NCBI GenBank assembly: GCA_964470705.1 | Contig: CAYYDT010000001.1 | Location: forward strand, 28,058-63,320 | Reading direction: 5' to 3' | DNA length: 35,263 bases | Origin: an uncultured Gammaproteobacteria bacterium | GTDB lineage: Bacteria > Patescibacteriota > Microgenomatia > UBA12405 > JAHJSD01 | In this document: piece after piece, positions 3,137 to 13,226 of the stretch | Position numbering within the stretch: the stretch's first letter is position 1 | Layout: each line of letters starts with the position of its first letter | Notes under the pieces: model-generated | Database searches by the model: none | The model's input: the letters and a program-made list of their open reading frames with translations, nothing else | What the model was told of the DNA's origin: nothing | Program-made: the position numbers and the translations under genes

Positions 3137-4057
3137 ATGTTAGATCAAATAGGATTTTCAGTTGAAGCAATAGAGGAGAAAGGAGCAAAAGGCAAGTATG
3201 TTATTTCGCCTTTACCGTCTGGTTTTGGTCATACTGTTGGCCATAGTTTGAGAAGGACATTATTAGGGGATTTTCCTGGAGCGGCGGCAACAACAATTAA
3301 GGTAAAAGGCGCCAGCCACCCTTTTTCAACTCTCGATGGGGTTAAGGAAGACCTGGTCGAGATTATTCTTAACATTAAGCAGATTAAATTTAAGTACGAC
3401 GGTGAAAAGCCGGTAAAACTGGAATTAACCAAAAAGGGTAAAGGAAAAGTAACTGCCGGCGATATTTCTCTTCAGCCCAAAGTTGAAATTGCTAATCCTG
3501 ATTTGGTTTTAGCAACTTTAACCAGAGATAAAGCCTCTCTTAAAATGGAATTAACTGTATCTTCTGGTATTGGATACCAATCGGCTGACAACCATGATCC
3601 GGATAAACACGGGGTGATTGCTGTTGATGCTATTTTTACTCCGGTTGAAAAAGTAAATTACCGGGTTGAACAGACCCGAAGAGGAAAAAAATCCGATTTG
3701 GATCAGTTGGAAATTGAGATTGAGACTGATGGGACAATTAAACCGGAAGAAGCGATGTTGACAGCGGCAGAAGCAATAGCTGAGGTCTTTAGTCAGATTG
3801 TTGACCCGAAAGGAGAAGCCGAAAAAGAGCCAAAGAAAAAGATTAAAACCAATAAAAACTATGACCTGACGATTGAGGAAATAGAAGAGGTTCCTCTAAG
3901 GCTTTCTAATGCCTTAAAAAAGGCCGGCTATAGAACGGTAAGCGATTTGGTTGATGCCTCACCTGATGAAATCAAGGAGGTAAAAAACGTCGGTAAGAAA
4001 TCGATTCAATTGCTTAAAGAGGTCCTGGATGAAATGGGAGTCAAATTTGAAGGTTAA
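3137..4057 (+). CDS. rpoA: DNA-directed RNA polymerase alpha subunit
   Basis: 306 aa. N-terminal assembly domain (GFGHTVGHSLRRTLL) and C-terminal helix-hairpin-helix domain (LRLSNALKKAGYRTVSDL). AAGGAGGAG SD upstream. Confidence 0.95.
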   Translation: MLDQIGFSVEAIEEKGAKGKYVISPLPSGFGHTVGHSLRRTLLGDFPGAAATTIKVKGASHPFSTLDGVKEDLVEIILNIKQIKFKYDGEKPVKLELTKKGKGKVTAGDISLQPKVEIANPDLVLATLTRDKASLKMELTVSSGIGYQSADNHDPDKHGVIAVDAIFTPVEKVNYRVEQTRRGKKSDLDQLEIEIETDGTIKPEEAMLTAAEAIAEVFSQIVDPKGEAEKEPKKKIKTNKNYDLTIEEIEEVPLRLSNALKKAGYRTVSDLVDASPDEIKEVKNVGKKSIQLLKEVLDEMGVKFEG

Positions 4058-4071
4058 CAAGGGGCAATTTG

Positions 4072-4458
4072 ATGAGACATAGAAAAAAAGGCAAAAAACT
4101 AAGTCGGGACACTGGGCAGAGGAAGGCTTTGTTTAAAAATTTGAGCCGGAGTTTTTTTCTTAATCAAGGTAAAATTGAAACTACCCTCGCCAAAGTAAAA
4201 GCAGTTCAGCCGAGAATTGAGAAAATGATTACCCGGGCTAAGAAGGGTGATTTATCTTCTCGAAGATGGCTTTACCGTTATTTCCAGGATCAGGACTTTG
4301 TTAATCAAATAGTAAAAGATTTTGGCAGTAAATTAAAAGAAAAACCAGGCGGTTATACGAAGATTATAAAATTAAAAAAGCGCCGGGGCGACAATGCAAC
4401 TATTGCCCGCCTTGAGTTGGTTGTTAATAAAGGTGAGGAAGCAGGGAGCGACTCCTGA
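4072..4458 (+). CDS. rplQ: 50S ribosomal protein L17
   Basis: MRHRKKGKKLSRDTGQRKAL start typical of L17. ATG at 4072, one codon inside the TTG ORF start. Confidence 0.9.
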   Translation: MRHRKKGKKLSRDTGQRKALFKNLSRSFFLNQGKIETTLAKVKAVQPRIEKMITRAKKGDLSSRRWLYRYFQDQDFVNQIVKDFGSKLKEKPGGYTKIIKLKKRRGDNATIARLELVVNKGEEAGSDS

Positions 4459-4485
4459 GAGGTGTCGCCAAGCTAAGGAGCAAAA

Positions 4486-4905
4486 ATGCAAAAAACAAAA
4501 CAATTAAAAAAAGAAGAAATTGAAAGAGAATGGCACCGTATAGATTTAGCCGGCCAAGTTCTTGGTCGGGTTGCCGTAAAGATAGCTGGTTTGTTAATCG
4601 GTAAGCATAAGCCTAATTATACGCCGCATTTAGATTGCGGCGATTATGTTGTTGCTGTAAATTCCAAGCAAATTGGTGTTACCGGAAAAAAACGACAGGA
4701 CAAAATTTACCACCACCACACTGGCTATATGGGGGGTTTAAAATCAATTAGTTTTCAGAAACTGATAGAGAAAGACCCAAACAAAATTATTCACCTAGCA
4801 GTTAAAAATATGCTGCCGAAAAATAAACTCCGAAAAAAAAGATTAGCACGTTTAAAAGTTTACCCGGACGCGGACCATCCATACGAAGATAAAATACATG
4901 GTTAA
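4486..4905 (+). CDS. rplM: 50S ribosomal protein L13
   Basis: 139 aa: REWHRIDLAGQVLGRVA, HKPNYTPHLDCGDYVV, GYMGGLK. AAGGAG SD upstream. Confidence 0.95.
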   Translation: MQKTKQLKKEEIEREWHRIDLAGQVLGRVAVKIAGLLIGKHKPNYTPHLDCGDYVVAVNSKQIGVTGKKRQDKIYHHHTGYMGGLKSISFQKLIEKDPNKIIHLAVKNMLPKNKLRKKRLARLKVYPDADHPYEDKIHG

Positions 4906-4951
4906 ATTGCTAGATTGTTAAATTGTTAATATTATAATTATATTGTTTTAG

Positions 4952-4983
4952 CCATCTAACCATTTAACCATTTAACCATTTGT
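4952..4983. repeat. four tandem 8-nt units (ccatctaa ccatttaa ccatttaa ccatttgt)
   Basis: CCAT at 4952, 4960, 4968 and 4976. Lies in an unusually long (117 nt) rplM-rpsI spacer that also holds GTTAAATTG twice (4901, 4917). Confidence 0.8.
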
Positions 4984-5022
4984 AAACAATAAAAATTAAT
5001 TTATAAAAAGCAAATCAATTCA

Positions 5023-5436
5023 ATGACATCTAAAAATTCAAAAAATAAGTACACTTATGCTCTTGGCAGACGAAAAGAAGCAACTGCTACCGTTAGGTTG
5101 TTTTCTGGCAAAGGTGATTTAAAAGTAAACGGATTGTCAATAGCTGATTATTTTCCGGGTAAAGTTAATAAATATTTTTACAACCAGCCGTTTGAAATTA
5201 CTGGTACTGAAACTAAATACCAGGGTACAGTTTTGGTTAGAGGCGGCGGTAAAAAAAGTCAACTTGAGGCAGTTGTCTTGGCCTTAAGCCGGGCTCTACA
5301 GAAAATTGACCGAGAAAAATACCGTCCCGGGCTTAAAGAAGCGGGATTACTGACTGTTGACGACCGGGTAAAAGAAAGAAGCAAACCGGGTCAGGCTGGC
5401 CGAGCCCGAGCCAAAAAACAATCCCCAAAACGCTAA
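5023..5436 (+). CDS. rpsI: 30S ribosomal protein S9
   Basis: 137 aa: GRRKEATATVRL, VRGGGKKSQLEAV, C-terminal ...KKQSPKR. Confidence 0.95.
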   Translation: MTSKNSKNKYTYALGRRKEATATVRLFSGKGDLKVNGLSIADYFPGKVNKYFYNQPFEITGTETKYQGTVLVRGGGKKSQLEAVVLALSRALQKIDREKYRPGLKEAGLLTVDDRVKERSKPGQAGRARAKKQSPKR

Positions 5437-5441
5437 CTACT

Positions 5442-5483
5442 ACCTGCACCTTAGAGGTGGGTTTATACCTGCACCTTAGGGTA
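5442..5483 (+). repeat. copy A of a conserved ~42-nt intergenic element (hairpin CACCT-TAG-AGGTG followed by TTTATACCTGCACCT)
   Basis: ACCTGCACCTTAGAGGTGGGTTTATACCTGCACCTTAGGGTA. Near-identical copy in the same orientation at 28155-28195. Confidence 0.75.
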
Positions 5484-5536
5484 TGTTTCTTTCTTCAGGA
5501 GGTTTCTTGTGATAGCACGCTACAGCGTGCGGTTAT

Positions 5537-5731
5537 TTACTTGTTCTCTTCAATAAATTTCGCAAATGACCGATCGTAGGTTGACTCTGTCTGGTTGGTA
5601 AAACAACATGCTGGCAGTTCTTGCCGGGACAAATGATATTGAAGACATTGACAACAGAGACCCTTCCGGGGGCAAGGTTCATAAGTACAGTTGCAATTGG
5701 TCTTATTTTGTTTTTGGTTTGGGCAATCCAT
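5537..5731 (-). CDS. small Cys-rich protein (resembles the DUF6485 family)
   Basis: 64 aa with 8 Cys in [22 protein letters not shown]...LPACCF. TAATG one-base overlap with the upstream half-ferritin gene. Confidence 0.6.
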
Positions 5732-5985
5732 TAACTGCTTATTTCTTCAACTTCTTTTTTTCCTTCTTCCATTTCCTCGAGCTGTTCAGGATCCCTTTCC
5801 AGTAACAAAGCTTGAAATTCACCGACATGCTCTTTTTCTTCTTTAGCAACATCCATTAGAACTTTCTTAACTTTCTCATCAGTGGCTATTTCAGCTAATT
5901 GTTCATAAAGACTAATTGCGTCTAATTCCGCCATTAATCCTAAACGTAAAACCTGTAGATCATTTTTGGGAAAATTTGCGAGCAT
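5731..5985 (-). CDS. two-helix half-ferritin / rubrerythrin-like protein (EncFtn-like E...EExxH pattern)
   Basis: 84 aa: [14 protein letters not shown] ... [17 protein letters not shown]. Strong GGAGGTGA SD upstream. Confidence 0.6.
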
Positions 5986-6024
5986 AATTGGTCACCTCCT
6001 TCCTAATGTATAATAATACCAAAG

Positions 6025-7182
6025 ATGACTAAGAAAAAAAATATCTATTTTGACTATGCCTCAACAACACCGGTGGCTGAAGAAGTGGAATCGGCAATGG
6101 AGGTTTATCTGGACAGAAAATTTGGCAACAGCGCTTCTTTACACTCTTTTGGCCGTCAGGCAAAACAAGCGCTGGAAAAAAGCCGGCAACAAATTGCCGG
6201 TTACTTAAATAGTTCACCAGAAAATCTGATTTTTACTGCTTCTGCCAGTGAAAGCAACAATTTAGCCCTTAAAGGTCTTGCCTGGGCCAATAAACAAAAA
6301 AAGCATCTTCTTATCTCTGCGATTGAACATGATTGTTTAATGAATACCGGCCGGTGGTTGGAAGGCCAGGGTTATCAATTGCAATTGATACCGGTAGATG
6401 AACATGGTTTAGTTGACCTGAATCAAGTCAAAAAAATGATTAGACCGGATACGTTGGTTGTTTCAGTGATGCACGCTAACAATGAGGTCGGCACTATCCA
6501 GCCGATCGCAGAAATTGGTCGTCTTTGCCGTGAAAAAGGTGTTTTATTTCATACCGATGCCGCTCAGACATTTGGCAAACTGCCTGTTGATGTCGAAAAA
6601 ATGAATTTAGATATGGTTACTCTTTCTTCCCATAAGATGTACGGTCCCAAAGGCGCCGCTGCCCTTTATGTTAAAGACGGCATTAATTTAACACCTTTAA
6701 TTCATGGCGGAGGACATGAAAAAAATATCCGGTCTTCTACTGTTAATGTTGCTGCTATAGTTGGTTTTAGCCGGGCAGTGGAACTATTTTTCCAAGGTAG
6801 GGAAGATTTTCAACGAATTGAAGAGTTACGGGATAAGTTAATTAAGGGTGTTTTGGAAAAAATTCCTAATTCGCGGTTAAACGGCCATCCCAAACAGCGT
6901 TTATATAACAACGCTAATTTTAGTTTTGCTTATGTAGAAGGGGAATCAATTATTTTAAAACTAGACCAAAAAGGAATTGCCGCTTCGACGGGATCGGCCT
7001 GCTCAGCACCTGACTTAAAGCCAAGCCATGTTTTACTTGCCCTTGGTTTAGCCCCAGAATTAGCTCATGGGTCTTTACGTTTGACTTTAGGTCGTTATAA
7101 TAAAGAATCAGACGTCAATTATTTATTGTCAGTTTTACCGGAGATTATTAAAGACTTAAGAAAAATTTCACCTTTTAAATAA
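6025..7182 (+). CDS. iscS: cysteine desulfurase, NifS/IscS type
   Basis: 385 aa. PLP lysine context SSHKMYGPKG and active-site loop STGSACSA. Confidence 0.9.
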   Translation: MTKKKNIYFDYASTTPVAEEVESAMEVYLDRKFGNSASLHSFGRQAKQALEKSRQQIAGYLNSSPENLIFTASASESNNLALKGLAWANKQKKHLLISAIEHDCLMNTGRWLEGQGYQLQLIPVDEHGLVDLNQVKKMIRPDTLVVSVMHANNEVGTIQPIAEIGRLCREKGVLFHTDAAQTFGKLPVDVEKMNLDMVTLSSHKMYGPKGAAALYVKDGINLTPLIHGGGHEKNIRSSTVNVAAIVGFSRAVELFFQGREDFQRIEELRDKLIKGVLEKIPNSRLNGHPKQRLYNNANFSFAYVEGESIILKLDQKGIAASTGSACSAPDLKPSHVLLALGLAPELAHGSLRLTLGRYNKESDVNYLLSVLPEIIKDLRKISPFK

Positions 7183-7679
7183 TGTATACCGATAAAGTTT
7201 TAGACCATTTTCAGAATCCGAAAAATTACGGCGAGATTAAAAGCCCAGATGGTATTGGTAAAGTTGGTAATGTTATTTGTGGCGATGTAATGTGGCTTTA
7301 TATCAAGGTGGACAAAAATCAGTCTGGCGAAGAGATTATTGACGATATTAAATTTAAAACTTTTGGTTGTGCGGCGGCGATTGCTACCAGCAGTATGGTT
7401 ACTGAGTTAGCTAAAGGAATGACTCTGGATCAAGCAGTAAAAATCAATAACCAGGATATAGTATCTGGATTAGGTGATTTGCCGCCGGTAAAAGTTCACT
7501 GTTCTGTGTTGGCGGCTGATGCTTTGGTTGAGGCGGTTTATGATTATTTATCCCAAAATGGTAAAAAGATTGATCAAAATTTAAAAAAACGCCATCAACG
7601 GATAGTTCGTGAAAAAAATATTATTGAAGAAAAGTATGGTCAATGGCAGGAGGGAGGTGAATCTGATGACTCCACTTAA
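7182..7679 (+). CDS. iscU: Fe-S cluster scaffold, IscU / NifU N-terminal type
   Basis: Three ligand Cys contexts (VICGDVM, FGCAAAIATSS, HCSVLA). TAATG overlap with the desulfurase gene. Confidence 0.9.
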   Translation: MYTDKVLDHFQNPKNYGEIKSPDGIGKVGNVICGDVMWLYIKVDKNQSGEEIIDDIKFKTFGCAAAIATSSMVTELAKGMTLDQAVKINNQDIVSGLGDLPPVKVHCSVLAADALVEAVYDYLSQNGKKIDQNLKKRHQRIVREKNIIEEKYGQWQEGGESDDST

Positions 7680-7980
7680 ATTAACAAGCAACAATTTCCA
7701 AGAAGAGGTTTTAGATTCAGAAAAACCTGTTTTGGTTGATTTTTGGGCAATTTGGTGCGGACCCTGCCGGGTGATGGACCCGATAATTAAAGAAGTAGCA
7801 GAGGAGTTGGGGGAAAAAGTAAAAGTTGGCAAATTAAATGTCGATGAAAATCAACAACTAGCAAGTGAATACGAAGTGCAGGCTATTCCAACAGTAATAA
7901 TTTTTAAAGACGGCCAGCCGGTAGAACGGTTGATTGGTATCCAGCCGAAAGAAAAATATCTGCAATCCCTAGAGGGGTAA
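7666..7980 (+). CDS. trxA: thioredoxin
   Basis: VLVDFWAIWCGPC active site and cis-Pro context AIPTV. ATG at 7666 follows AGGGAGGTGA; the 7609 ORF start lies inside iscU. Confidence 0.9.
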   Translation: MTPLKLTSNNFQEEVLDSEKPVLVDFWAIWCGPCRVMDPIIKEVAEELGEKVKVGKLNVDENQQLASEYEVQAIPTVIIFKDGQPVERLIGIQPKEKYLQSLEG

Positions 7981-7981
7981 T

Positions 7982-8078
7982 TGGTTGGGGTGGTCTGCCT
8001 AGCCGTCAAGCCTGGCCGGACTTGCCGCGCCCGCCATCGCCTACGCTCAAGCGTTTTGGGCGGGAACCGGCGGCCTTT
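7982..8078 (-). other. tRNA-like 3' fragment (variable loop, T arm, acceptor 3' strand, ACCA) interrupted by GC-rich insertions
   Basis: Minus strand reads AAGGCCGCCGGTTC[41-nt GC hairpin]AAGTCCGGC[22 nt]CACCCCAACCA. It copies the T arm of the adjacent tRNA-Pro. Its 3' end is complementary to CGGGGTG at 8270-8264. Confidence 0.5.
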
Positions 8079-8082
8079 AACT

Positions 8083-8158
8083 TGGTCGGGGATGCCGGAC
8101 TTGAACCGGCGGCCTTTCGCACCCCATGCGAACGCGCTAGCCTCTGCGCCAATCCCCG
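8083..8158 (-). tRNA. tRNA-Pro (anticodon GGG), CCA encoded
   Basis: Hand-folded cloverleaf: CGGGGAT T G GCGC AGAGGCTA GCGC G TTCGC ATGGGGT GCGAA AGGCC GCCGG TTCAAGT CCGGC ATCCCCG A CCA (76 nt). Confidence 0.85.
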
Positions 8159-8202
8159 TATATTTAAATTTTACTTTTTAAAATGTATGTGTAAAACATT
8201 TT

Positions 8203-8270
8203 GCTAGCCTCTGCCCGCCCGCAACGCCGAGCAAGCTCTGCTTGCATGGCGGGCGCGGCGCCACACCCCG
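8203..8270 (-). other. tRNA-like 5' fragment (acceptor 5' strand, D stem, D loop) interrupted by a GC-rich insertion
   Basis: Minus strand reads CGGGGTGTGGCGC[GC hairpin]CAGAGGCTAGC, copying positions 1-23 of the adjacent tRNA-Pro. There is no anticodon arm. Confidence 0.5.
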
Positions 8271-8315
8271 TTAGTCAAATTTTATCAAGATTTGGTTTAT
8301 ATTGAAAGACAGGAG

Positions 8316-8341
8316 TTTAGAGTTTGGAATTTAGAGTTTGG
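8316..8341. repeat. direct repeat TTTAGAGTTTGG x2 (14-nt period) upstream of recA
   Basis: Copies at 8316-8327 and 8330-8341. A third partial GAGTTTGG lies at 8369-8376. Confidence 0.7.
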
Positions 8342-8429
8342 GATTTCGATCAAGTCAGACTTGGTTTCGAGTTTGGTTTTTTTAGTGGTTGTTTTTTTAT
8401 TTTGATTGTGATTAAATTAAACTAGAATT

Positions 8430-9485
8430 ATGGCAAAGAAAAAGAAAAAAGCTAAAGGCGAAAAGCAGAAGGCGAAAAGCAAAGAACAAAAGCAAAAACT
8501 GGAAGCGGTGAAGAACGCTATGGACCGGATAGAGAAGCAATACGGTAAAGGGGCGATAATGAAAATGGGCGACCGTCAGGGAAAAATGGACGTTGACTCA
8601 ATCTCCACCGGGTGCCTGCCGGTTGACATCGCTTTAGGCGTCGGTGGTGTTCCCAGAGGCCGGATTGTTGAAATTTTTGGCCCCGAGGCCTCAGGAAAAA
8701 CAACTTTAATTCTTCATATTATTGCTGAAGCTCAAAAAGCCGGCGGTGTAGCCGCTTTTGTTGACGCTGAACACGCATTAAATCCGCAGTGGGCAGAAAA
8801 AATCGGCGTAAACTTGGAAGATCTACTTATTTCTCAACCGGATACCGGTGAACAGGCGCTGGAAATTGTTGAAACTTTGGTTCGCTCCGGCGGGCTGGAT
8901 TTGATTTTGGTTGATTCGGTTGCTGCTTTAGTGCCTAAATCAGAAATTGAAGGCGATATGGGCGATGCCCAGGTTGGTGTTCAGGCAAGACTGATGTCGC
9001 AAGCCCTGCGCAAACTTGCCGGAACAATCAACAAAACCAGTACTTGTTTGATTTTTACCAATCAGATCCGCCATAAAATCGGGGTTTTCTTTGGCAATCC
9101 GGAAACAACTTCCGGCGGTTTGGCCTTAAAGTTTTATTCATCGGTACGAATTGACCTGAGGCAGAGGAAAAAAATTAAAGACACAGAAGGCGATATTATT
9201 GGGTCTTTGCACCGGGCAAAAGTAATTAAAAATAAGATTGCCCCGCCTTTTAGAGAAGCGGAGTTTGAAATTTACAACACCAATGGAATATCCTGGGAGG
9301 CCGGTTTGATTGATGCCGGTGAAAAGTACGGTGTAGTTGAACGAAGCGGTGCTTATTATAAATACGGGAAGGAAACTTTAGGACAAGGGAAAGAGGCGGC
9401 TATAAAGTTTTTAGAAGATAATTCTAAAATCAGCAACAAAATAGAAAAAGAGATTTGGCAGGCTGTTCAATCCCGCGCTTCTTAA
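8430..9485 (+). CDS. recA: recombinase RecA with Lys-rich N-terminal extension
   Basis: 351 aa. Walker [20 protein letters not shown] and L2 region. The first ~25 aa ([22 protein letters not shown]) are extra compared with typical RecA. Confidence 0.95.
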
Positions 9486-9507
9486 GTTTAAAGTTTTTAC
9501 CTTCTTG

Positions 9508-9516
9508 TGTTAGAAT
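9508..9516 (+). promoter_or_regulatory. extended -10 box TGTTAGAAT, putative rny promoter
   Basis: TGnTAnAAT match about 80 nt upstream of rny. The leader contains the 12-nt palindrome GGCTGATCAGCC (9566-9577) and a GGAAAGGAG SD. Confidence 0.45.
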
Positions 9517-9596
9517 ATACCGACATAAAGTCAGAAGATTAATTAAATATTAAAATACTTCGGCGGGCTGATCAGCCGGCCGGGAAAGGAGAAAAA

Positions 9597-11012
9597 ATGA
9601 TTAATTTAGGAAATATTTTCGGCCAGCCGAAAACTAAAGATTTAGAAGATAAAAAAGATACCGCTTCTTTAAAGGAATTAAAATTGGCTGAACTGGTTGA
9701 TGAATTAAAACAAAGAGAAAAAGAACTTGACAAACGTTTGGAGTCAATGGACGATCGGGAGCGGTATCTGCGCGAAAAAGAGACCCGGCTGGAAAAACGA
9801 GAGGAAAAAACAGCAGAATTGGAAAAGAAATTAAAGACGCTGATAGACCAAGAAACTAAAAAACTAGAAAGTCTGGCCGATTTAACCAAAGAAGAGGCCA
9901 GGGAGAAACTAAAGCAAGAAACCGAAAAACAATTGGTTGAATGGAAAGCCAAGAAAATTCGAGAAACCAGGGATGTTATTGAGGCAGAAGAGGATCAGTT
10001 GGCCCAGGAAATAGTCCTTAATTCTATAAGGCATGGAGTAGTTGATTGGGTTGCCGAATATACTGTTTCTTCACTGCAATTGGAAAATGAGGATATAAAA
10101 GGGCGAATTATTGGTCGTGAGGGAAGAAATATTCGGGCTTTTGAAAGGGCAACTGGGGTTGATTTAGAGTTAGACGAGACCAATGTTGTTAGGCTTTCTT
10201 CTTTTGATCCTATTCGTCGGGAAATTGCTAAAAGAGCATTGAAAAAATTGATTAAAGACACTCGGATCCAACCGTCGCGTATTGAAGAAGTTGTTGACCA
10301 AACCAAAAAGCAGATGGACAAGACCTTGGTGGAAGAAGGTAAAAAGATTTGTCAAGAGGTTGGTGTTTACCATTTACCCGCGGAATTAGTTTCGCTTATT
10401 GGCCGGTTTAAGTTTCGGTTTTCTCACGGTCAGAATTTAGCCTTGCACACAATTGAGGAGACAAAAATCGGCATAAAAATTGCTCAAGAATTAAACGCCG
10501 ACGTAAAAGTTGTTAGATTAGGTTGTTTGCTTCATGATATTGGCAAAGTTATTGATGAAGAAGGTAGTCACGTGGATGTTGGAGTCGACGCTCTTAAGCG
10601 TTTTAATATTCCCTCGGAAGTAATAAATACGGTTGCTGAGCATCACGAGGACAAGCCTTTTTCCAGCACCGAATCAATTATTGTTTGGGTGGCTGATGCC
10701 GCATCCGGCTCCCGTCCAGGGGCGCGGTATGAGGCCCACGAAAAGTACCTGGAAAGAATGGAAAACATTGAGGAAATTGTCAATTCTTTTCAAGGTGTAG
10801 AGGATGTGGTTTGTTATCAAGCCGGCCGGGAAGTCAGGGTTATAGTTAATCCAGAAAAGATTTCTGACGATGAACTAACTGTTCTTGTTCATGATATTGC
10901 TGTCAAACTTGAAGACGAAACTAAATGGGCCGGTCAAATAAAGGTTACGGCAATCAGAGAAACAAGGGCGGCAGTTAAGGCACCAATTGACAAAGATGAA
11001 TTTTCCCGCTAG
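9597..11012 (+). CDS. rny: ribonuclease Y
   Basis: 471 aa. Coiled-coil Lys/Glu-rich N-terminus, KH domain (GRIIGREGRNIRAFERATGVDL) and HD domain (LLHDIGK ... HHED). Confidence 0.9.
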   Translation: MINLGNIFGQPKTKDLEDKKDTASLKELKLAELVDELKQREKELDKRLESMDDRERYLREKETRLEKREEKTAELEKKLKTLIDQETKKLESLADLTKEEAREKLKQETEKQLVEWKAKKIRETRDVIEAEEDQLAQEIVLNSIRHGVVDWVAEYTVSSLQLENEDIKGRIIGREGRNIRAFERATGVDLELDETNVVRLSSFDPIRREIAKRALKKLIKDTRIQPSRIEEVVDQTKKQMDKTLVEEGKKICQEVGVYHLPAELVSLIGRFKFRFSHGQNLALHTIEETKIGIKIAQELNADVKVVRLGCLLHDIGKVIDEEGSHVDVGVDALKRFNIPSEVINTVAEHHEDKPFSSTESIIVWVADAASGSRPGARYEAHEKYLERMENIEEIVNSFQGVEDVVCYQAGREVRVIVNPEKISDDELTVLVHDIAVKLEDETKWAGQIKVTAIRETRAAVKAPIDKDEFSR

Positions 11013-11037
11013 AATGATGATAATTAAAGTTTGACAA

Positions 11038-11064
11038 GTTCGAGCGTTTCGAGCCTTTCGAACT
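11038..11064. repeat. three tandem 9-nt units with TCGA core (gttcgagcg tttcgagcc tttcgaact)
   Basis: TCGA at 11040, 11049 and 11058. Immediately follows a TTGACA hexamer (11031-11036) and ends 25 nt before the hup start. Confidence 0.8.
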
Positions 11065-11088
11065 TTATTAAGAAAGGGGGTGAAGACG

Positions 11089-11361
11089 ATGACAAAAAGA
11101 GAATTAATCGATATTGTTGCCCAAAAAACAGGTTTGACTAAAAAAGCCTCTCGGGAAGCTTTAGAAACTATTTTCGGTGAAATTACCAAAGCTTTAAAAA
11201 GAGGAGAGAAAGTTAAGATTTTTGGATTCGGTGTATTTTTTACCAAACTCTTTAGTTCCAAGGAAGTTAAGCCAATTGGTGGCGGTCCAAAAAAGAAAAT
11301 TCCGGCAAGAAGAATGCCTAGATTTAGACCGGGTACAACACTTAAACGTCAAGTAAAGTAA
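11089..11361 (+). CDS. hup: HU-type DNA-binding protein
   Basis: MTKRELIDIVAQKTGLTKKASREALE..., a classic HU/IHF N-terminus with arm region RMPRFRPG. ATG at 11089 follows AAAGGGGGTGA. Confidence 0.9.
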   Translation: MTKRELIDIVAQKTGLTKKASREALETIFGEITKALKRGEKVKIFGFGVFFTKLFSSKEVKPIGGGPKKKIPARRMPRFRPGTTLKRQVK

Positions 11362-11376
11362 GAATTTTAGACGAGT

Positions 11377-11424
11377 ACGGCCCTGCAGGCAGGTAGGTTT
11401 ACTTACCGGCGGGGCCGTGTGTTT
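11377..11424 (+). terminator. GC-rich hairpin after hup (ACGGCCC ... GGGCCGT) followed by GTGTGTTT
   Basis: 7-bp outer stem plus an imperfect inner stem. Located 16 nt after the hup stop. Confidence 0.5.
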
Positions 11425-11432
11425 ATCAACAG

Positions 11433-12422
11433 ATGGATAAAAATAATCTATTAGTCAATAATTTAAAAAAGCATTATCGTGTTTATCAAAAAAAAGCCGG
11501 TCTTATCGGCTCTTTATCTTCACTTTTTAAACGTGACTACAAAATAGTTCAAGCGGTTGATGAGATAAGCTTCCAAATTAAGAAAGGCGAATTAGTCGGC
11601 TTCATCGGTCCAAACGGTGCTGGTAAAACAACTACTCTCAAGTGTTTGTCTGGTCTTCTTTATCCAGACGATGGAGAAGTTTCTGTTTTAGGATATAAAC
11701 CTTGGGACAGGCAGCCGAGTTTTTTAAAAAAGATCGCTTTTGTTATGGGGCAGAAAAATCAACTTTGGTGGGATTTGCCACCGATTGAGACTTTTTATCT
11801 TAACAAAGAAATTTACCAGGTTGATGATTCCCAGTTTAAAAAAAATCTTGACGAACTAGTAGATTTACTGGAAGTCAGCGAAATCATCAATACGCAAACC
11901 AGAAAACTGTCTTTGGGTCAAAGAATGAAATGCGAACTGATTGCTTCTTTGCTTCACCAGCCGGAAATTTTGTTTCTTGATGAACCAACCATCGGTCTTG
12001 ACGTGGTAATGCAGAAAAAAATACGCGACTTTATAAAAGTTTATAATCAACGATACCAGGCAACAATTATATTAACATCGCATTATATGGGTGATGTTCA
12101 GGAATTGGCCGATCGGGTAATAATTATTGATAAAGGAAAAATAGTTTTTGACGGCCAGCTGGATAAAATTACCCAAAAATACGCTGACTATAAACTGATT
12201 AGTTTAACACTTGCTAACCAGGTTGACCGGAAAGCACTGGCCGCTGTCGGCGAGATAAAAATGTTTGATTTACCGAAAGCGCAGATTAAAGTTAAAAGAG
12301 AAGTTGCCTCTTTGGTCGCTGCCGAAGTGCTTAAAAAGTTTCCGGTAGAAGATTTAAATATCGAACAGCCGCCGATTGAGGAAATAATTCGCCGACTGTT
12401 TATTGAAAAGGATTATGATTAA
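11433..12422 (+). CDS. ABC transporter ATP-binding protein
   Basis: Walker A GPNGAGKTT, signature LSLGQRMK, Walker B ILFLDEPTIGLD. Confidence 0.9.
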   Translation: MDKNNLLVNNLKKHYRVYQKKAGLIGSLSSLFKRDYKIVQAVDEISFQIKKGELVGFIGPNGAGKTTTLKCLSGLLYPDDGEVSVLGYKPWDRQPSFLKKIAFVMGQKNQLWWDLPPIETFYLNKEIYQVDDSQFKKNLDELVDLLEVSEIINTQTRKLSLGQRMKCELIASLLHQPEILFLDEPTIGLDVVMQKKIRDFIKVYNQRYQATIILTSHYMGDVQELADRVIIIDKGKIVFDGQLDKITQKYADYKLISLTLANQVDRKALAAVGEIKMFDLPKAQIKVKREVASLVAAEVLKKFPVEDLNIEQPPIEEIIRRLFIEKDYD

Positions 12423-12425
12423 CTG

Positions 12426-13226
12426 ATGAAAAAATATTTCCGGGTAATTAAGATTAGTTTTATGGAATATTTTGTTTATCGGTTAAATTTTTTTTTGTGG
12501 CGCTTTCGAAGCATAGTTACCTTTTTAACTTTAATTTTTTTCTGGCAGGCGGTTTACGGCGCCAGGAATGAAGTTTTTGGTTACCAGCGCAGTCAAATGC
12601 TTACCTACGTTGTCGGCATGTCAATACTTAGAGGGATTATTCTTACCAGTCGTACTGCCGACCTATCTGGAATGATTCTCAACGGTGACTTAGTTAGTAA
12701 ATACTTACTTCGACCTTGGAACGTAGTTACTGCTTGGTTTCTCCGTGATTTATCTGCGAAGGGTTTAAATTTTGGGTTTGTTGTAGTTGAAGTGGTCTTA
12801 TTAATTAGAATTTTGAACCTTCCTTTTTATACACCGGAAAAATGGCAAACTTTCCCACTGTTTTTGGCAAGTATTATTCTTGCTTTTTTACTTTATTTTT
12901 TGATCAGTTTTTTTCTGTCAATTACTGCTTTTTGGACAGATAACGTTTGGGCTCCCCGGTGGTTGTTTTCTGCTATTTTTTTAGAATTTATGGCAGGAAC
13001 CCTGTTTCCTCTAGACGTGCTTCCTTCTGGTGTCTATGATTTTATTCATTTTACTCCCTTTCCTTATTTAGTTTATTTGCCGTTGAATATTTATTTAGAA
13101 AAAGTTTCTTTGTTTACTGCTGGCTATCAGTTGTTTATATTGCTTTTCTGGCTTATATTGTTTCAACAGGTAACTTTTTGGGCATGGAAAAAAGGATTAA
13201 AGATTTATACTGCTTATGGGAATTAA
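12426..13226 (+). CDS. ABC-2 type transporter permease
   Basis: 266 aa, multi-pass hydrophobic, immediately downstream of the ATPase. Substrate unknown. Confidence 0.7.
   Translation: MKKYFRVIKISFMEYFVYRLNFFLWRFRSIVTFLTLIFFWQAVYGARNEVFGYQRSQMLTYVVGMSILRGIILTSRTADLSGMILNGDLVSKYLLRPWNVVTAWFLRDLSAKGLNFGFVVVEVVLLIRILNLPFYTPEKWQTFPLFLASIILAFLLYFLISFFLSITAFWTDNVWAPRWLFSAIFLEFMAGTLFPLDVLPSGVYDFIHFTPFPYLVYLPLNIYLEKVSLFTAGYQLFILLFWLILFQQVTFWAWKKGLKIYTAYGN

What the first reader, a model, noticed from the sequence alone, without database searches (positions are those of the whole stretch)
7982..8270. Intact tRNA-Pro nested between the two halves of a second tRNA-like sequence that carry inverted GC-rich hairpin insertions
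All sequences below are read on the minus strand.

Upstream of the intact 76-nt tRNA-Pro(GGG) (8158 to 8083) lies CGGGGTGTGGCGC ... CAGAGGCTAGC. This is an acceptor 5' strand, D stem and D loop.

Downstream lies AAGGCCGCCGGTTC ... AAGTCCGGC ... CACCCCAACCA. This is a variable loop, a T arm and an acceptor 3' strand complementary to CGGGGTG (apart from a C1-A72 mismatch), followed by ACCA.

The outer copy has no anticodon arm. That position is occupied by a 44-nt AT-rich spacer (with hairpin AAAATGT/ACATTTT) plus the complete inner tRNA.

Each outer half is split by a very GC-rich insertion of about 41-46 nt, after the D stem and inside the T loop respectively. The two insertions are inverted copies of each other. 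gccgcgcccgccat (8024-8037) is the exact reverse complement of atggcgggcgcggc (8246-8259), and both end in gggcggg/cccgccc. They could therefore pair with themselves or with each other across the tRNA.

The region is far more GC-rich than its AT-rich surroundings, as are the other structured RNAs in this window. No integrase or transposase gene is nearby.

Possible readings:
- a decayed tRNA-Pro paralogue invaded by a palindromic GC-rich mini-element and by a replacement tRNA;
- a processed multi-part or intron-containing tRNA-like RNA;
- a structured precursor that controls tRNA-Pro maturation.
Basis: seen in the sequence. Interest (0 to 1): 0.7.

Follow-up and report, generated by a model that had tools for sequence, protein, structure and literature searches.

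The report
Dead nuclease element splitting tRNA-Pro gene
The "tRNA inside a tRNA" is the wreck of a small selfish DNA element (a 78-amino-acid GIY-YIG nuclease gene plus GC-rich palindromes) that colonises tRNA genes across the ultra-small Patescibacteria while leaving a working tRNA copy in place, and this tRNA-linked family does not seem to have been described.

Summary
An intact tRNA-Pro(GGG) (8083-8158, minus strand) lies between the 5' and 3' pieces of a second tRNA-Pro. Each piece is interrupted by one copy of a 40-45 nt GC-rich palindrome, and the two copies are in opposite orientation.

The outer "tRNA" is not a gene or a precursor. The "44-nt AT-rich spacer" is the stub of a 78-aa GIY-YIG nuclease gene (MFYTYILKSK|I*, an in-frame 67-codon deletion). 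That gene is intact at the same place in sister genomes L081, L083 and L166. Other sister genomes (L082, L167) have a plain tRNA-Pro there.

In 80 metagenomic loci carrying this nuclease family, 55 of 88 ORF matches (48 of the 73 with at least 200 nt of downstream sequence) have a same-strand tRNA 0-90 nt downstream, covering at least 15 tRNA identities. 44 of the 82 loci analysed have the same palindrome within 120 nt upstream of the ORF, and 38 ORFs show the full module (hairpin-broken copy of the cognate tRNA's 5' part, ORF, intact tRNA). Elsewhere the ORF sits inside the palindrome, precisely interrupting protein genes, so the short hairpins are ORF-less derivatives.

The window holds a dead copy. 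The element family is the interesting part. It is a new variant of free-standing homing-endonuclease or MITE-like elements, and its mobility mechanism is inferred, not shown.

The parts
8279..8287 (-). Extended -10 promoter-like TGATAAAAT, 8 nt upstream of nt 1 of the outer 5' fragment. It is presumed to be the resident tRNA promoter, which in intact copies would also drive the nuclease ORF.
   Evidence: Direct reading. The same motif and spacing occur before the 5' fragment in L083 and L081 and before the plain tRNA genes of L082, L001 and L167. Consensus match only; not shown to be active.
8258..8270 (-). Outer 5' fragment, part 1: tRNA-Pro nt 1-13 (CGGGGTGTGGCGC), the GTG acceptor type.
   Evidence: Identical to nt 1-13 of the intact tRNA-Pro of L001, L081, L082 and L083.
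8213..8257 (-). GC-rich palindromic element, copy 1 (ins1), inserted in the D loop of the 5' fragment. Orientation 'F' relative to the tRNA strand.
   Evidence: Covariance-model hit 8214-8257, 58.7 bits. 44/45 identical to L083 and L081. Member of alignment A2.
8203..8212 (-). Outer 5' fragment, part 2: tRNA-Pro nt 14-23 (AGAGGCTAGC).
8164..8199 (-). Stub of the GIY-YIG nuclease ORF: ATG, codons 1-10, the last codon and the stop (MFYTYILKSKI*). This is an in-frame internal deletion of 67 codons relative to the 78-aa ORF of L083 and L081.
   Evidence: Translation. Alignment to L083 and L081. The intact ORF is a Pfam GIY-YIG domain, E 1.6e-18. tblastn finds codons 1-10 only, and no other copy in the window.
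8168..8195 (-). Promoter-like TTTACA-16 nt-TAAAAT inside the ORF stub, ending 10 nt before the inner tRNA.
   Evidence: 10 of 12 consensus positions. Consensus match only.
8083..8158 (-). Intact, presumably functional tRNA-Pro(GGG). Acceptor CGGGGAT/ATCCCCG, CCA encoded.
   Evidence: ARAGORN. Rfam 59.8 bits. Same acceptor type as the plain tRNA-Pro of L167.
8064..8077 (-). Outer 3' fragment, part 1: variable loop, T stem 5' strand and start of the T loop (AAGGCCGCCGGTTC). It follows the 5-nt spacer AGTTA (8078-8082).
8024..8063 (-). GC-rich palindromic element, copy 2 (ins2), in the T loop. Orientation 'R', that is inverted relative to copy 1. A shortened variant lacking the apical helix.
   Evidence: Covariance-model hit 8026-8064, 42.1 bits on the minus strand. 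Homologous element at the same T-loop position in L001, L083 (partial) and L121.
8015..8023 (-). Outer 3' fragment, part 2: rest of the T loop and T stem 3' strand (AAGTCCGGC).
7993..8014 (-). Extra 22-nt insertion (CAGGCTTGACGGCTAGGCAGAC) between the T stem and the acceptor strand. Origin unknown.
   Evidence: Absent from the homologous 3' fragment of L001.
7982..7992 (-). Outer 3' fragment, part 3: acceptor 3' strand CACCCCA (A72 mismatch) plus ACCA. It ends 1 nt from the trxA stop codon, which is the position held by the 3' end of the intact tRNA in plain loci.
   Evidence: Spacing compared with L081, L082, L167 and L001.

Best explanation
Window 7982-8287 is a dead, composite copy of a selfish module found across Patescibacteria (CPR).

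What is there (shown):
- The working gene is the inner tRNA-Pro(GGG).
- The 'outer tRNA' consists of the two ends of another tRNA-Pro(GGG) allele, the CGGGGTG/CACCCC type that is the functional gene in sister genomes.
- These ends still sit in the native positions behind the tRNA promoter and next to the trxA stop codon. They are separated by a cassette made of a 78-aa GIY-YIG nuclease ORF followed by a complete tRNA.
- Each outer end carries one copy of a 40-45 nt GC-rich palindrome. This palindrome is the ORF-less form of the inverted-repeat arms that enclose the same nuclease family at other loci.
- The nuclease ORF has since lost 67 internal codons, leaving the 'AT-rich spacer'.

How active copies most likely work (inferred):
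1. Transcription from the resident tRNA promoter runs through the broken 5' tRNA copy, the nuclease ORF and the intact tRNA. The promoter-less nuclease is therefore expressed, and the tRNA is released by normal processing.
2. The nuclease is a catalytic domain only, related to UPF0213 and Slx1. It makes breaks that lead to copying of the cassette into unoccupied tRNA genes of the same type by repair or recombination.
3. Because the cassette supplies or regenerates a full tRNA, the insertion is harmless.
4. The palindrome splits the duplicated tRNA segment. This would hinder loss of the ORF by recombination between the repeats, and/or destroy a cleavage site.

In this window the element can no longer move and has no evident function.
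For: Shown:
1. The spacer translates to MFYTYILKSKI* and aligns to the start and end of the 78-aa ORF that occupies the same position in L081, L083 and L166. That ORF is a GIY-YIG domain (Pfam E 1.6e-18).
2. The same locus (trxA, tRNA-Pro, recA) is polymorphic in sister genomes with 88-90% RecA identity: plain tRNA in L082 and L167, 5' fragment + hairpin + ORF + tRNA in L081, L083 and L166, tRNA + 3' fragment with hairpin in L001.
3. The 70-nt 5' fragment plus hairpin is 69/70 identical between the window and L083, while the adjacent trxA DNA is 70% identical.
4. Family level: 55 of 88 ORF matches in 80 metagenomic loci (48 of 73 with at least 200 nt downstream) have a same-strand tRNA 0-90 nt downstream, covering at least 15 identities.
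5. A copy of nt 1-9 of the cognate tRNA lies upstream of the ORF in 29 of 51 loci, against 10 of 432 for non-cognate controls. Most of the remainder have the hairpin inserted before nt 9 or a diverged acceptor.
6. 44 of 82 loci have the hairpin within 120 nt upstream of the ORF. 38 ORFs have the full fragment-hairpin-ORF-tRNA arrangement.
7. In 10-13 loci the ORF lies inside the palindrome arms, and precise removal restores host reading frames.
8. The hairpin covariance model gives 2 hits in the window, 0 in 632 kb of unrelated loci and dozens in 231 kb of CPR loci.
9. L121 has a pseudo-tRNA with hairpins at the same D-loop and T-loop sites in opposed orientation.
10. Nuclease subclades follow tRNA identity.
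11. Promoter geometry is conserved before the 5' fragment and before plain tRNAs.
12. The closest solved structures are UPF0213 proteins and, weakly, SLX1.
Against: - No biochemical or transcript data exist. Cleavage specificity, the homing step and the role of the hairpin are all inferred.
- A 78-aa catalytic domain has no obvious way of recognising 15 or more different tRNA genes.
- The intact tRNA copy next to the ORF keeps the same sequence as an unoccupied target, so self-immunity is unexplained.
- The order of events in the window is not resolved. By position the outer pieces are the resident gene. However, the inner acceptor type is the native type of L167, and the five lineages are equidistant.
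- The 3' fragment with a hairpin is rare in the family (6 of 47 loci share any 10-mer of the tRNA 3' half downstream), so it may stem from a separate event.
- The 22-nt insert at 7993-8014 is unexplained.
Confidence: 0.8

Rival explanations
1. The outer halves and their complementary GC inserts form a functional structured precursor. A long-range clamp, like the processing stems that flank rRNAs, would control maturation or stability of tRNA-Pro.
For: The 301-nt transcript is predicted to pair the outer acceptor strands and ins1 with ins2 (MFE -132.4 kcal/mol, z = -3.08). The 5' fragment plus hairpin is far better conserved than neighbouring coding DNA.
Against: Sister genomes manage with a plain tRNA-Pro (L082, L167). 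The 5' and 3' parts occur separately (L081, L166 versus L001), so the clamp cannot form in most carriers. The hairpin occurs in both orientations across the family, roughly 38 to 27. The z-score is modest for a region that contains a tRNA and two GC palindromes.
Confidence: 0.04
2. The outer sequence is a split or multi-intron tRNA gene. Its inserts, including the inner tRNA, are removed at the RNA level to give a second tRNA.
For: The outer acceptor strands are complementary and differ from the inner ones by compensatory changes. ACCA follows the 3' strand.
Against: tRNA nt 24-42 (the 3' strand of the D stem and the anticodon arm) are absent. The outer pieces simply match the L001 allele 53/54. 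No intron family was detected by Rfam even at E<=10. The organism is a bacterium (bacterial recA, rny, rpoA), and bacteria have no known bulge-helix-bulge tRNA splicing. In the family the upstream copy always stops at nt 7-48 and is followed by an ORF.
Confidence: 0.01
3. The fragments are ordinary attL/attR-type scars of integrase-mediated genomic islands that once used tRNA-Pro as an attachment site. The GC hairpins are unrelated REP- or MITE-like repeats that landed there by chance.
For: Displaced 3' tRNA fragments next to an intact tRNA are the classic signature of island integration. L001 and L083 carry extra genes between the tRNA and its neighbours (a PaaX/Cas2-like ORF flanked by 42-nt direct repeats in L001).
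Against: There is no integrase in the window or in the relatives' loci. Island integration does not produce 5' fragments upstream of the tRNA. The hairpin is found inside tRNA copies next to this nuclease family in dozens of independent loci, and it forms the arms around the ORF elsewhere. It has only two copies in 35 kb, both here.
Confidence: 0.07
4. The nuclease is a domesticated housekeeping gene that happens to be co-transcribed with tRNAs. The upstream fragments would then be by-products of tRNA gene duplication, not of mobility.
For: The protein is very conserved (65-75% identity, invariant catalytic residues). It is widespread in CPR (901 hits). Its relatives, the UPF0213 proteins, are not known to be mobile.
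Against: There is presence/absence and decay at a single orthologous locus. Modules occur in tandem (L090, L110, L091). Copies inside palindromes precisely interrupt unrelated protein genes at conserved sites. There can be several copies within 3 kb (L123, L136). Horizontal transfer of GIY-YIG genes out of Patescibacteria has been reported (PMC12455944).
Confidence: 0.08

Closest known systems
Free-standing GIY-YIG homing endonuclease genes in tRNA gene clusters (phage T4 SegB; PMC2330249, PMC13096335)
   Same: A GIY-YIG nuclease gene lies among or next to tRNA genes. It is inherited together with flanking tRNA sequence, and can drive local duplication or amplification.
   Different: SegB is a site-specific enzyme of a phage whose gene lies in a tRNA gene cluster and whose cleavage is demonstrated (PMC2330249). 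From memory, it also has a DNA-binding region beyond the catalytic domain. The CPR protein is 78 aa, catalytic domain only, chromosomal, sits inside a split tRNA gene, and comes with a conserved GC palindrome. No activity has been shown.
Mobile GIY-YIG ORFs of fungal mitochondria that insert into a gene and carry a duplicate of its end, together with GC-rich double-hairpin elements (Allomyces atp6; recalled from memory, not retrieved)
   Same: An AT-rich genome, a GIY-YIG ORF, partial duplication of the invaded gene so that function is kept, and GC-rich hairpin elements at the junctions.
   Different: The host there is an organelle and the target a protein gene with a C-terminal duplication. 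Here the host is a bacterium, the target is a tRNA gene with a 5' duplication, and the hairpin lies inside the redundant copy. The comparison rests on my recollection.
Non-intron insertion sequences encoding GIY-YIG proteins in CPR rRNA genes (Tsurumaki et al. 2024, PMC11270868)
   Same: The same bacterial group. GIY-YIG ORFs are carried by insertions that are neither group I nor group II introns. Many short ORF-less insertions are also present.
   Different: That work covers rRNA genes only. It mentions neither tRNA genes, nor inverted repeats or hairpins, nor partial duplications. Whether those proteins belong to the family studied here was not tested.
MITEs and REP elements with an autonomous partner
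   Same: A short palindromic non-coding element shares its arms with a longer version that encodes an enzyme between the arms.
   Different: No target-site duplication was seen. The presumed enzyme is a GIY-YIG nuclease, not a DDE or HUH transposase. In the window the copy number is two, not dozens. Insertion sites are tRNA copies and specific positions in a few gene families.
Fractured genes with a free-standing homing endonuclease between the halves (Dassa et al. 2009, PMC2677866)
   Same: In the embedded copies a host gene is cut into two ORFs with the nuclease gene between them. An in-frame ATG is supplied for the downstream half.
   Different: No split intein halves are present, so nothing is known that would rejoin the halves. 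This applies to the protein-gene copies, not to the window.

Membership tests
Free-standing GIY-YIG homing endonuclease gene | Encodes a GIY-YIG catalytic domain | tested here: met
   The intact ORF in L083 scores Pfam PF01541 E 1.6e-18, 67 bits against a cut-off of 22.6. Catalytic-motif residues are invariant in 39 members. In the window itself only 11 codons survive, so the window copy is a pseudogene.
Free-standing GIY-YIG homing endonuclease gene | Presence/absence polymorphism of the gene at one orthologous site in related genomes | tested here: met
   L082 and L167 are empty; L081, L083 and L166 are filled; the window is degraded. RecA identity among them is 88-90%.
Free-standing GIY-YIG homing endonuclease gene | A DNA-binding module that gives site specificity | tested here: not met
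   The protein is 78 aa and matches positions 2-74 of the 78-position Pfam catalytic-domain profile. PDB relatives are single-domain UPF0213 proteins.
Free-standing GIY-YIG homing endonuclease gene | Cleavage of the unoccupied allele and gene conversion | not testable with these tools
   This needs enzyme assays or population-level allele data.
MITE-like non-autonomous element | Terminal inverted repeats shared with a longer coding element | tested here: met
   The arms CCCGCCCGC..CGCCTGAGC / GC.CGATGGCGGGC.GG flank the ORF in 10-13 loci, and are directly joined in the solo hairpins.
MITE-like non-autonomous element | Target-site duplication | tested here: not met
   Joining the flanks restores tRNA or protein sequence without duplicated bases. 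Ambiguity is at most 1-3 nt.
MITE-like non-autonomous element | Many dispersed copies per genome | tested here: inconclusive
   There are two copies in the 35-kb window, both at this locus. No complete genome was available.
Structured RNA (hairpin as RNA motif) | Base pairs supported by compensatory changes, with one orientation relative to transcription | tested here: inconclusive
   The apical helix has 4 of 6 pairs with double changes. The outer arms never vary, so they give no information. Both orientations are common, roughly 38 to 27, which argues against a sequence-specific RNA role.
Intron-containing or split tRNA | Exons that join into a complete cloverleaf with an anticodon arm | tested here: not met
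   The outer copy lacks nt 24-42. Only the inner tRNA is detected.
Integrase-type island scar at a tRNA gene | A tyrosine or serine recombinase gene and a 3' tRNA direct repeat | tested here: not met
   No recombinase was found in the ORFs inspected (window 4000-13000) or in the relatives' loci. A 3' repeat is present, but so is a 5' repeat, which integration does not produce.

The most novel reading that the evidence does not exclude
The GC palindrome and the tRNA-derived sequence on either side of it are not passive scars but part of the targeting machinery of a minimal, 78-aa, domain-less nuclease. The nuclease would recognise the extruded hairpin or cruciform, or use the tRNA-like flanks as homology or a guide, to direct breaks and copying into tRNA, rRNA and a few protein genes. 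That would make this a new class of bacterial mobile element: the smallest autonomous one, about 320 bp, bounded by inverted repeats, leaving no target duplication, and splitting host genes into separately translated halves.
Probability: 0.2. Interest if true: 0.85.

Novelty: new variant of a known kind. Interest (0 to 1): 0.62.

Why it matters
For this window the result is mainly a correction: the nested 'tRNA in a tRNA' is a fossil, not a new RNA gene.

The family behind it is of wider interest:
- A very small nuclease gene with a conserved GC palindrome has colonised tRNA genes of at least 15 specificities across Patescibacteria. It always leaves a working tRNA, and it also sits precisely inside protein genes.
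- This offers an explanation for tRNA-like fragments and odd N-terminally extended 'GIY-YIG' gene calls in CPR genome annotations.
- It may link to the unexplained non-intron GIY-YIG insertions reported in CPR rRNA genes.
- It raises a testable question: how does a nuclease with no DNA-binding domain find its targets?
- It is also a practical warning for tRNA annotation and for binning or assembly at repeated tRNA segments.

Tried and rejected
- Rfam at gathering and at E<=10 over 7850-8400 gave only the inner tRNA and a chance-level RT-2 match (13.5 bits against a 40-bit cut-off). There is no tmRNA, intron or known motif.
- I considered an archaeal-style split or multi-intron tRNA, because of the AT-rich genome with GC-rich RNAs. 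I rejected it once the flanking genes proved bacterial and the relatives were read.
- I considered a tmRNA-like tRNA domain lacking an anticodon arm. It was rejected: ARAGORN finds none, and the acceptor register does not fit.
- My first translations of the spacer and of the L081 ORF were out of frame and were redone.
- A loose regular expression for the hairpin was not specific: 56 hits in 632 kb of unrelated, often GC-rich loci. It was replaced by a covariance model.
- A 12-mer probe for 3' fragments missed hairpin-split copies and was replaced by shared 10-mers.
- Phylogeny could not decide which acceptor type is native to the window's lineage, because the lineages are equidistant.
- Two stem models for the hairpin could not be told apart, because the arms do not vary.
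- Nine literature searches found no description of tRNA-linked GIY-YIG and hairpin modules. The Allomyces double-hairpin papers were not in the library.
Full report
**1. The observation**

Read on the minus strand, the region is laid out as follows:
- tRNA-Pro nt 1-13, CGGGGTGTGGCGC (8270-8258)
- a 45-nt GC-rich insert (8257-8213)
- tRNA nt 14-23, AGAGGCTAGC (8212-8203)
- 44 AT-rich nt (8202-8159)
- an intact 76-nt tRNA-Pro(GGG) with encoded CCA (8158-8083)
- AGTTA (8082-8078)
- AAGGCCGCCGGTTC (8077-8064)
- a 40-nt GC-rich insert (8063-8024)
- AAGTCCGGC (8023-8015)
- 22 further nt (8014-7993)
- CACCCCA ACCA (7992-7982), ending 1 nt before the stop codon of the convergent trxA

ARAGORN and Rfam call only the inner tRNA. 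The exact 14-nt inverted repeat and the duplicated tRNA segments are confirmed and are unique in the window.

**2. Context**

The flanking genes are bacterial: rpoA, rplQ, rplM, rpsI, iscS, iscU and trxA on one side, recA, rny, hup and an ABC transporter on the other. The nuclease family described below is annotated almost only in Patescibacteria (CPR). That fits the AT-rich genome with GC-rich structural RNAs.

**3. The same locus in sister genomes**

A RecA scan gave one close relative, L001. Thioredoxin homologues gave L081-L085, L166 and L167. RecA identity among these lineages is 88-90%.

All keep trxA, tRNA-Pro(GGG) and recA, but the tRNA region differs:
- L082 and L167 have a plain tRNA.
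- L081, L166 and L083 have the same 5' fragment with the same GC insert, then an intact 78-codon ORF, then the tRNA.
- L001 has an intact tRNA followed by a 3' fragment whose T loop carries the GC insert.
- L083 also has a partial 3' fragment.

The ORF is a GIY-YIG catalytic domain (Pfam E 1.6e-18).

The window's 'spacer' reads ATG TTT TAC ACA TAC ATT TTA AAA AGT AAA ATT TAA. This is codons 1-10, the last codon and the stop of that ORF, that is an in-frame deletion of 67 codons. The short spacer to the tRNA is retained. No other copy of the gene is in the window.

The 70 nt of 5' fragment plus hairpin are 69/70 identical between the window and L083, although the trxA genes next door are only 70% identical at DNA level.

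An extended -10 box (TGnTAAAAT) lies 8 nt before nt 1 of the 5' fragment. It has the same spacing before the plain tRNA genes. In plain loci the tRNA 3' end is 3-5 nt from the trxA stop, and that slot is held by the 3' fragment in the window and in L001. So the outer pieces sit where a resident tRNA gene would sit, and they are 53/54 identical to the functional allele of L001.

The inner tRNA has the other acceptor type (GAT/ATC), which is the functional type in L167. Which type was ancestral in the window's lineage cannot be decided.

**4. The family**

The 78-aa protein has 901 relatives at E<1e-5. Most are 78 aa and 65-75% identical to the query, and the named ones are from CPR groups. A metagenome scan returned 80 loci.

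*tRNA association.* In 55 of 88 ORF matches a tRNA gene lies on the same strand 0-90 nt after the stop codon (48 of the 73 with at least 200 nt of downstream sequence), and at least 15 tRNA identities are involved.

*Upstream copy.* Upstream of the ORF there is a copy of the 5' part of that same tRNA. An exact or 1-mismatch copy of nt 1-9 is present in 29 of 51 loci, against 10 of 432 for non-cognate controls. Most of the rest have the insert before nt 9 or a diverged acceptor.

*Hairpin.* The copy is interrupted by a 36-51 nt GC palindrome with the same arms as in the window. It ends 0-26 nt before the ATG (leftover nt). The hairpin site is at nt 3-22 and the copy extends to nt 7-33, up to about 48 in L110. 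44 of the 82 loci analysed have the hairpin within 120 nt upstream of the ORF, and 38 ORFs show the complete fragment-hairpin-ORF-tRNA arrangement.

*Other arrangements:*
- In a tRNA-Lys subgroup the hairpin lies between the ORF and the tRNA.
- Tandem modules occur in L090, L110 and L091.
- L121 has a pseudo-tRNA with hairpins in the D loop and T loop, in opposed orientation, as in the window.
- In 10-13 loci without a tRNA, the ORF lies between the two arms of the palindrome, and the whole 321-363 nt unit interrupts a protein gene on the same strand. Precise removal restores the reading frame. Examples are three diverged GxxExxY-type genes cut at the same codon and an IS200/RAYT-like gene cut in its HUH motif.

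The short hairpins are therefore ORF-less derivatives of an inverted-repeat-bounded nuclease element.

*Specificity and orientation.* A covariance model of the hairpin gives no hit in 632 kb of unrelated loci, two in the window, and dozens in the CPR loci. Both orientations relative to the ORF are common. The outer arms are invariant in sequence, and the apical helix shows compensatory changes.

*Protein clustering.* Proteins cluster by arrangement and, among the tRNA-linked ones, by tRNA identity. The nearest solved structures are single-domain UPF0213 proteins and, weakly, SLX1.

**5. Interpretation**

Shown: the window carries a degraded member of this module.

Inferred:
- In live copies the resident tRNA promoter expresses the nuclease as the first part of a fragment-ORF-tRNA transcript.
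- The nuclease promotes copying of the cassette into unoccupied tRNA genes.
- The complete tRNA makes the insertion neutral.
- The hairpin, by splitting the direct repeat of tRNA sequence, protects the ORF from loss by recombination and/or removes a cleavage site.

Weak points:
- There is no way yet to explain target recognition by a domain-less nuclease.
- There is no explanation for immunity of the adjacent intact tRNA.
- The order of events in the window is unresolved.
- 3' fragments are rare in the family.
- The 22-nt insert is unexplained.

**6. Rivals**

- A maturation-controlling precursor is contradicted by plain loci, by separate occurrence of the two halves and by both hairpin orientations.
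- A split or intron-bearing tRNA is contradicted by the missing anticodon arm.
- Integrase scars do not explain 5' fragments or the nuclease link.
- A domesticated housekeeping nuclease does not explain polymorphism, decay, tandem copies and precise insertions in protein genes.

**7. What is known**

- GIY-YIG homing endonuclease genes next to tRNA genes are known from phage T4 (SegB; PMC2330249, PMC13096335).
- GIY-YIG ORFs in non-intron insertions of CPR rRNA genes are reported without mention of tRNAs or hairpins (PMC11270868).
- From memory, fungal mitochondrial GIY-YIG ORFs with partial host-gene duplication and GC-rich double-hairpin elements are the nearest analogue.
- Nine literature searches found no description of the tRNA-linked module. 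The library is limited, so this is absence of evidence only.

**8. Verdict**

- The window feature itself is a fossil of modest interest.
- The element family it points to is a new variant of a known kind and deserves follow-up.
- Confidence that the region is a degraded GIY-YIG and hairpin module: about 0.8.
- Confidence in the proposed life cycle: much lower.

Noticed in passing
L109, L124, L128, L148 (also L153, L140): Copies of the nuclease ORF enclosed by the palindrome arms cut host protein genes into two ORFs. The upstream host frame stops 5-11 codons into the left arm. In 4 of 6 cases the right arm region supplies an ATG in frame with the downstream host half (MLARDGGQ|VEIK.., MAGR|HFHFLL..). 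Element lengths are 327, 327, 327, 321 and 363 nt, all multiples of 3. This resembles 'fractured genes', but without inteins.
   Followed up: partly
L152, L160, L162, L163, L164: More divergent members of the nuclease family (55-59% identity) are flanked by different, AT-richer inverted repeats (for example CCCTGTTAAATA / TATTTAACAGGG). Two of them sit inside four-helix-bundle (23S rRNA IVS protein-like) genes. So arm type changes with nuclease clade.
   Followed up: partly
L123 (about 1885-2250) and L131 (after tRNA-Asn 1800-1874): A second, different GIY-YIG type (MYYTYILRNNE..) lies downstream of the tRNA and is followed by a displaced 3' tRNA fragment. A conserved TCCTTCGCYAARGCTAYGGA sequence follows the tRNA. 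This is a 3'-side counterpart of the module.
   Followed up: no
L001 3005-3905: A 267-aa ORF with a PaaX central Cas2-like domain (Pfam E 6.8e-19) lies between tRNA-Pro and recA. It is bracketed by about 42-nt direct repeats containing the palindrome GCGCGATCGCGC. A related motif lies before recA in L083. It is absent from the window.
   Followed up: partly
L083 3320-3345 and 3386-4718: Next to the trxA stop there is a remnant, CCCCGACCAAAAGTTAAA, matching the window's inner tRNA 3' end plus spacer (CCCCGACCAAGTTAAA). It is followed by two inserted ORFs (57 and 317 aa, no Pfam match). This shows an older layer of rearrangement at this locus.
   Followed up: partly
L104 about 1570-1800: A tRNA-Lys(UUU) following the hairpin appears to be interrupted after the anticodon loop by a long structured insert, possibly a group I intron. 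ARAGORN did not call this tRNA.
   Followed up: no
L110 1800-1890 and about 2380: A second kind of GC-rich insert (CCCCGCCTGAAAGGACGGGGTCCCGTCCAG..GGCGGGA) sits in the anticodon loop of an upstream tRNA-Thr copy and again 650 nt downstream. This is another hairpin family.
   Followed up: no
window 8168-8195 (-): The deletion that killed the nuclease ORF left a good sigma-70-like promoter match (TTTACA, 16 nt, TAAAAT) ending 10 nt before the inner tRNA. It could now serve as that tRNA's own promoter.
   Followed up: no
window 8300-8330 (-): A short tandem repeat, CCAAACTCTAAAYTCC x2, lies in the recA-tRNA spacer.
   Followed up: no
L083, L084, L166 and many proteins: Gene callers extend the nuclease ORF upstream through the hairpin and tRNA fragment, giving 86-125 aa products (for example 114 aa in L083 and 94 aa in L166). 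This is an annotation artefact.
   Followed up: partly
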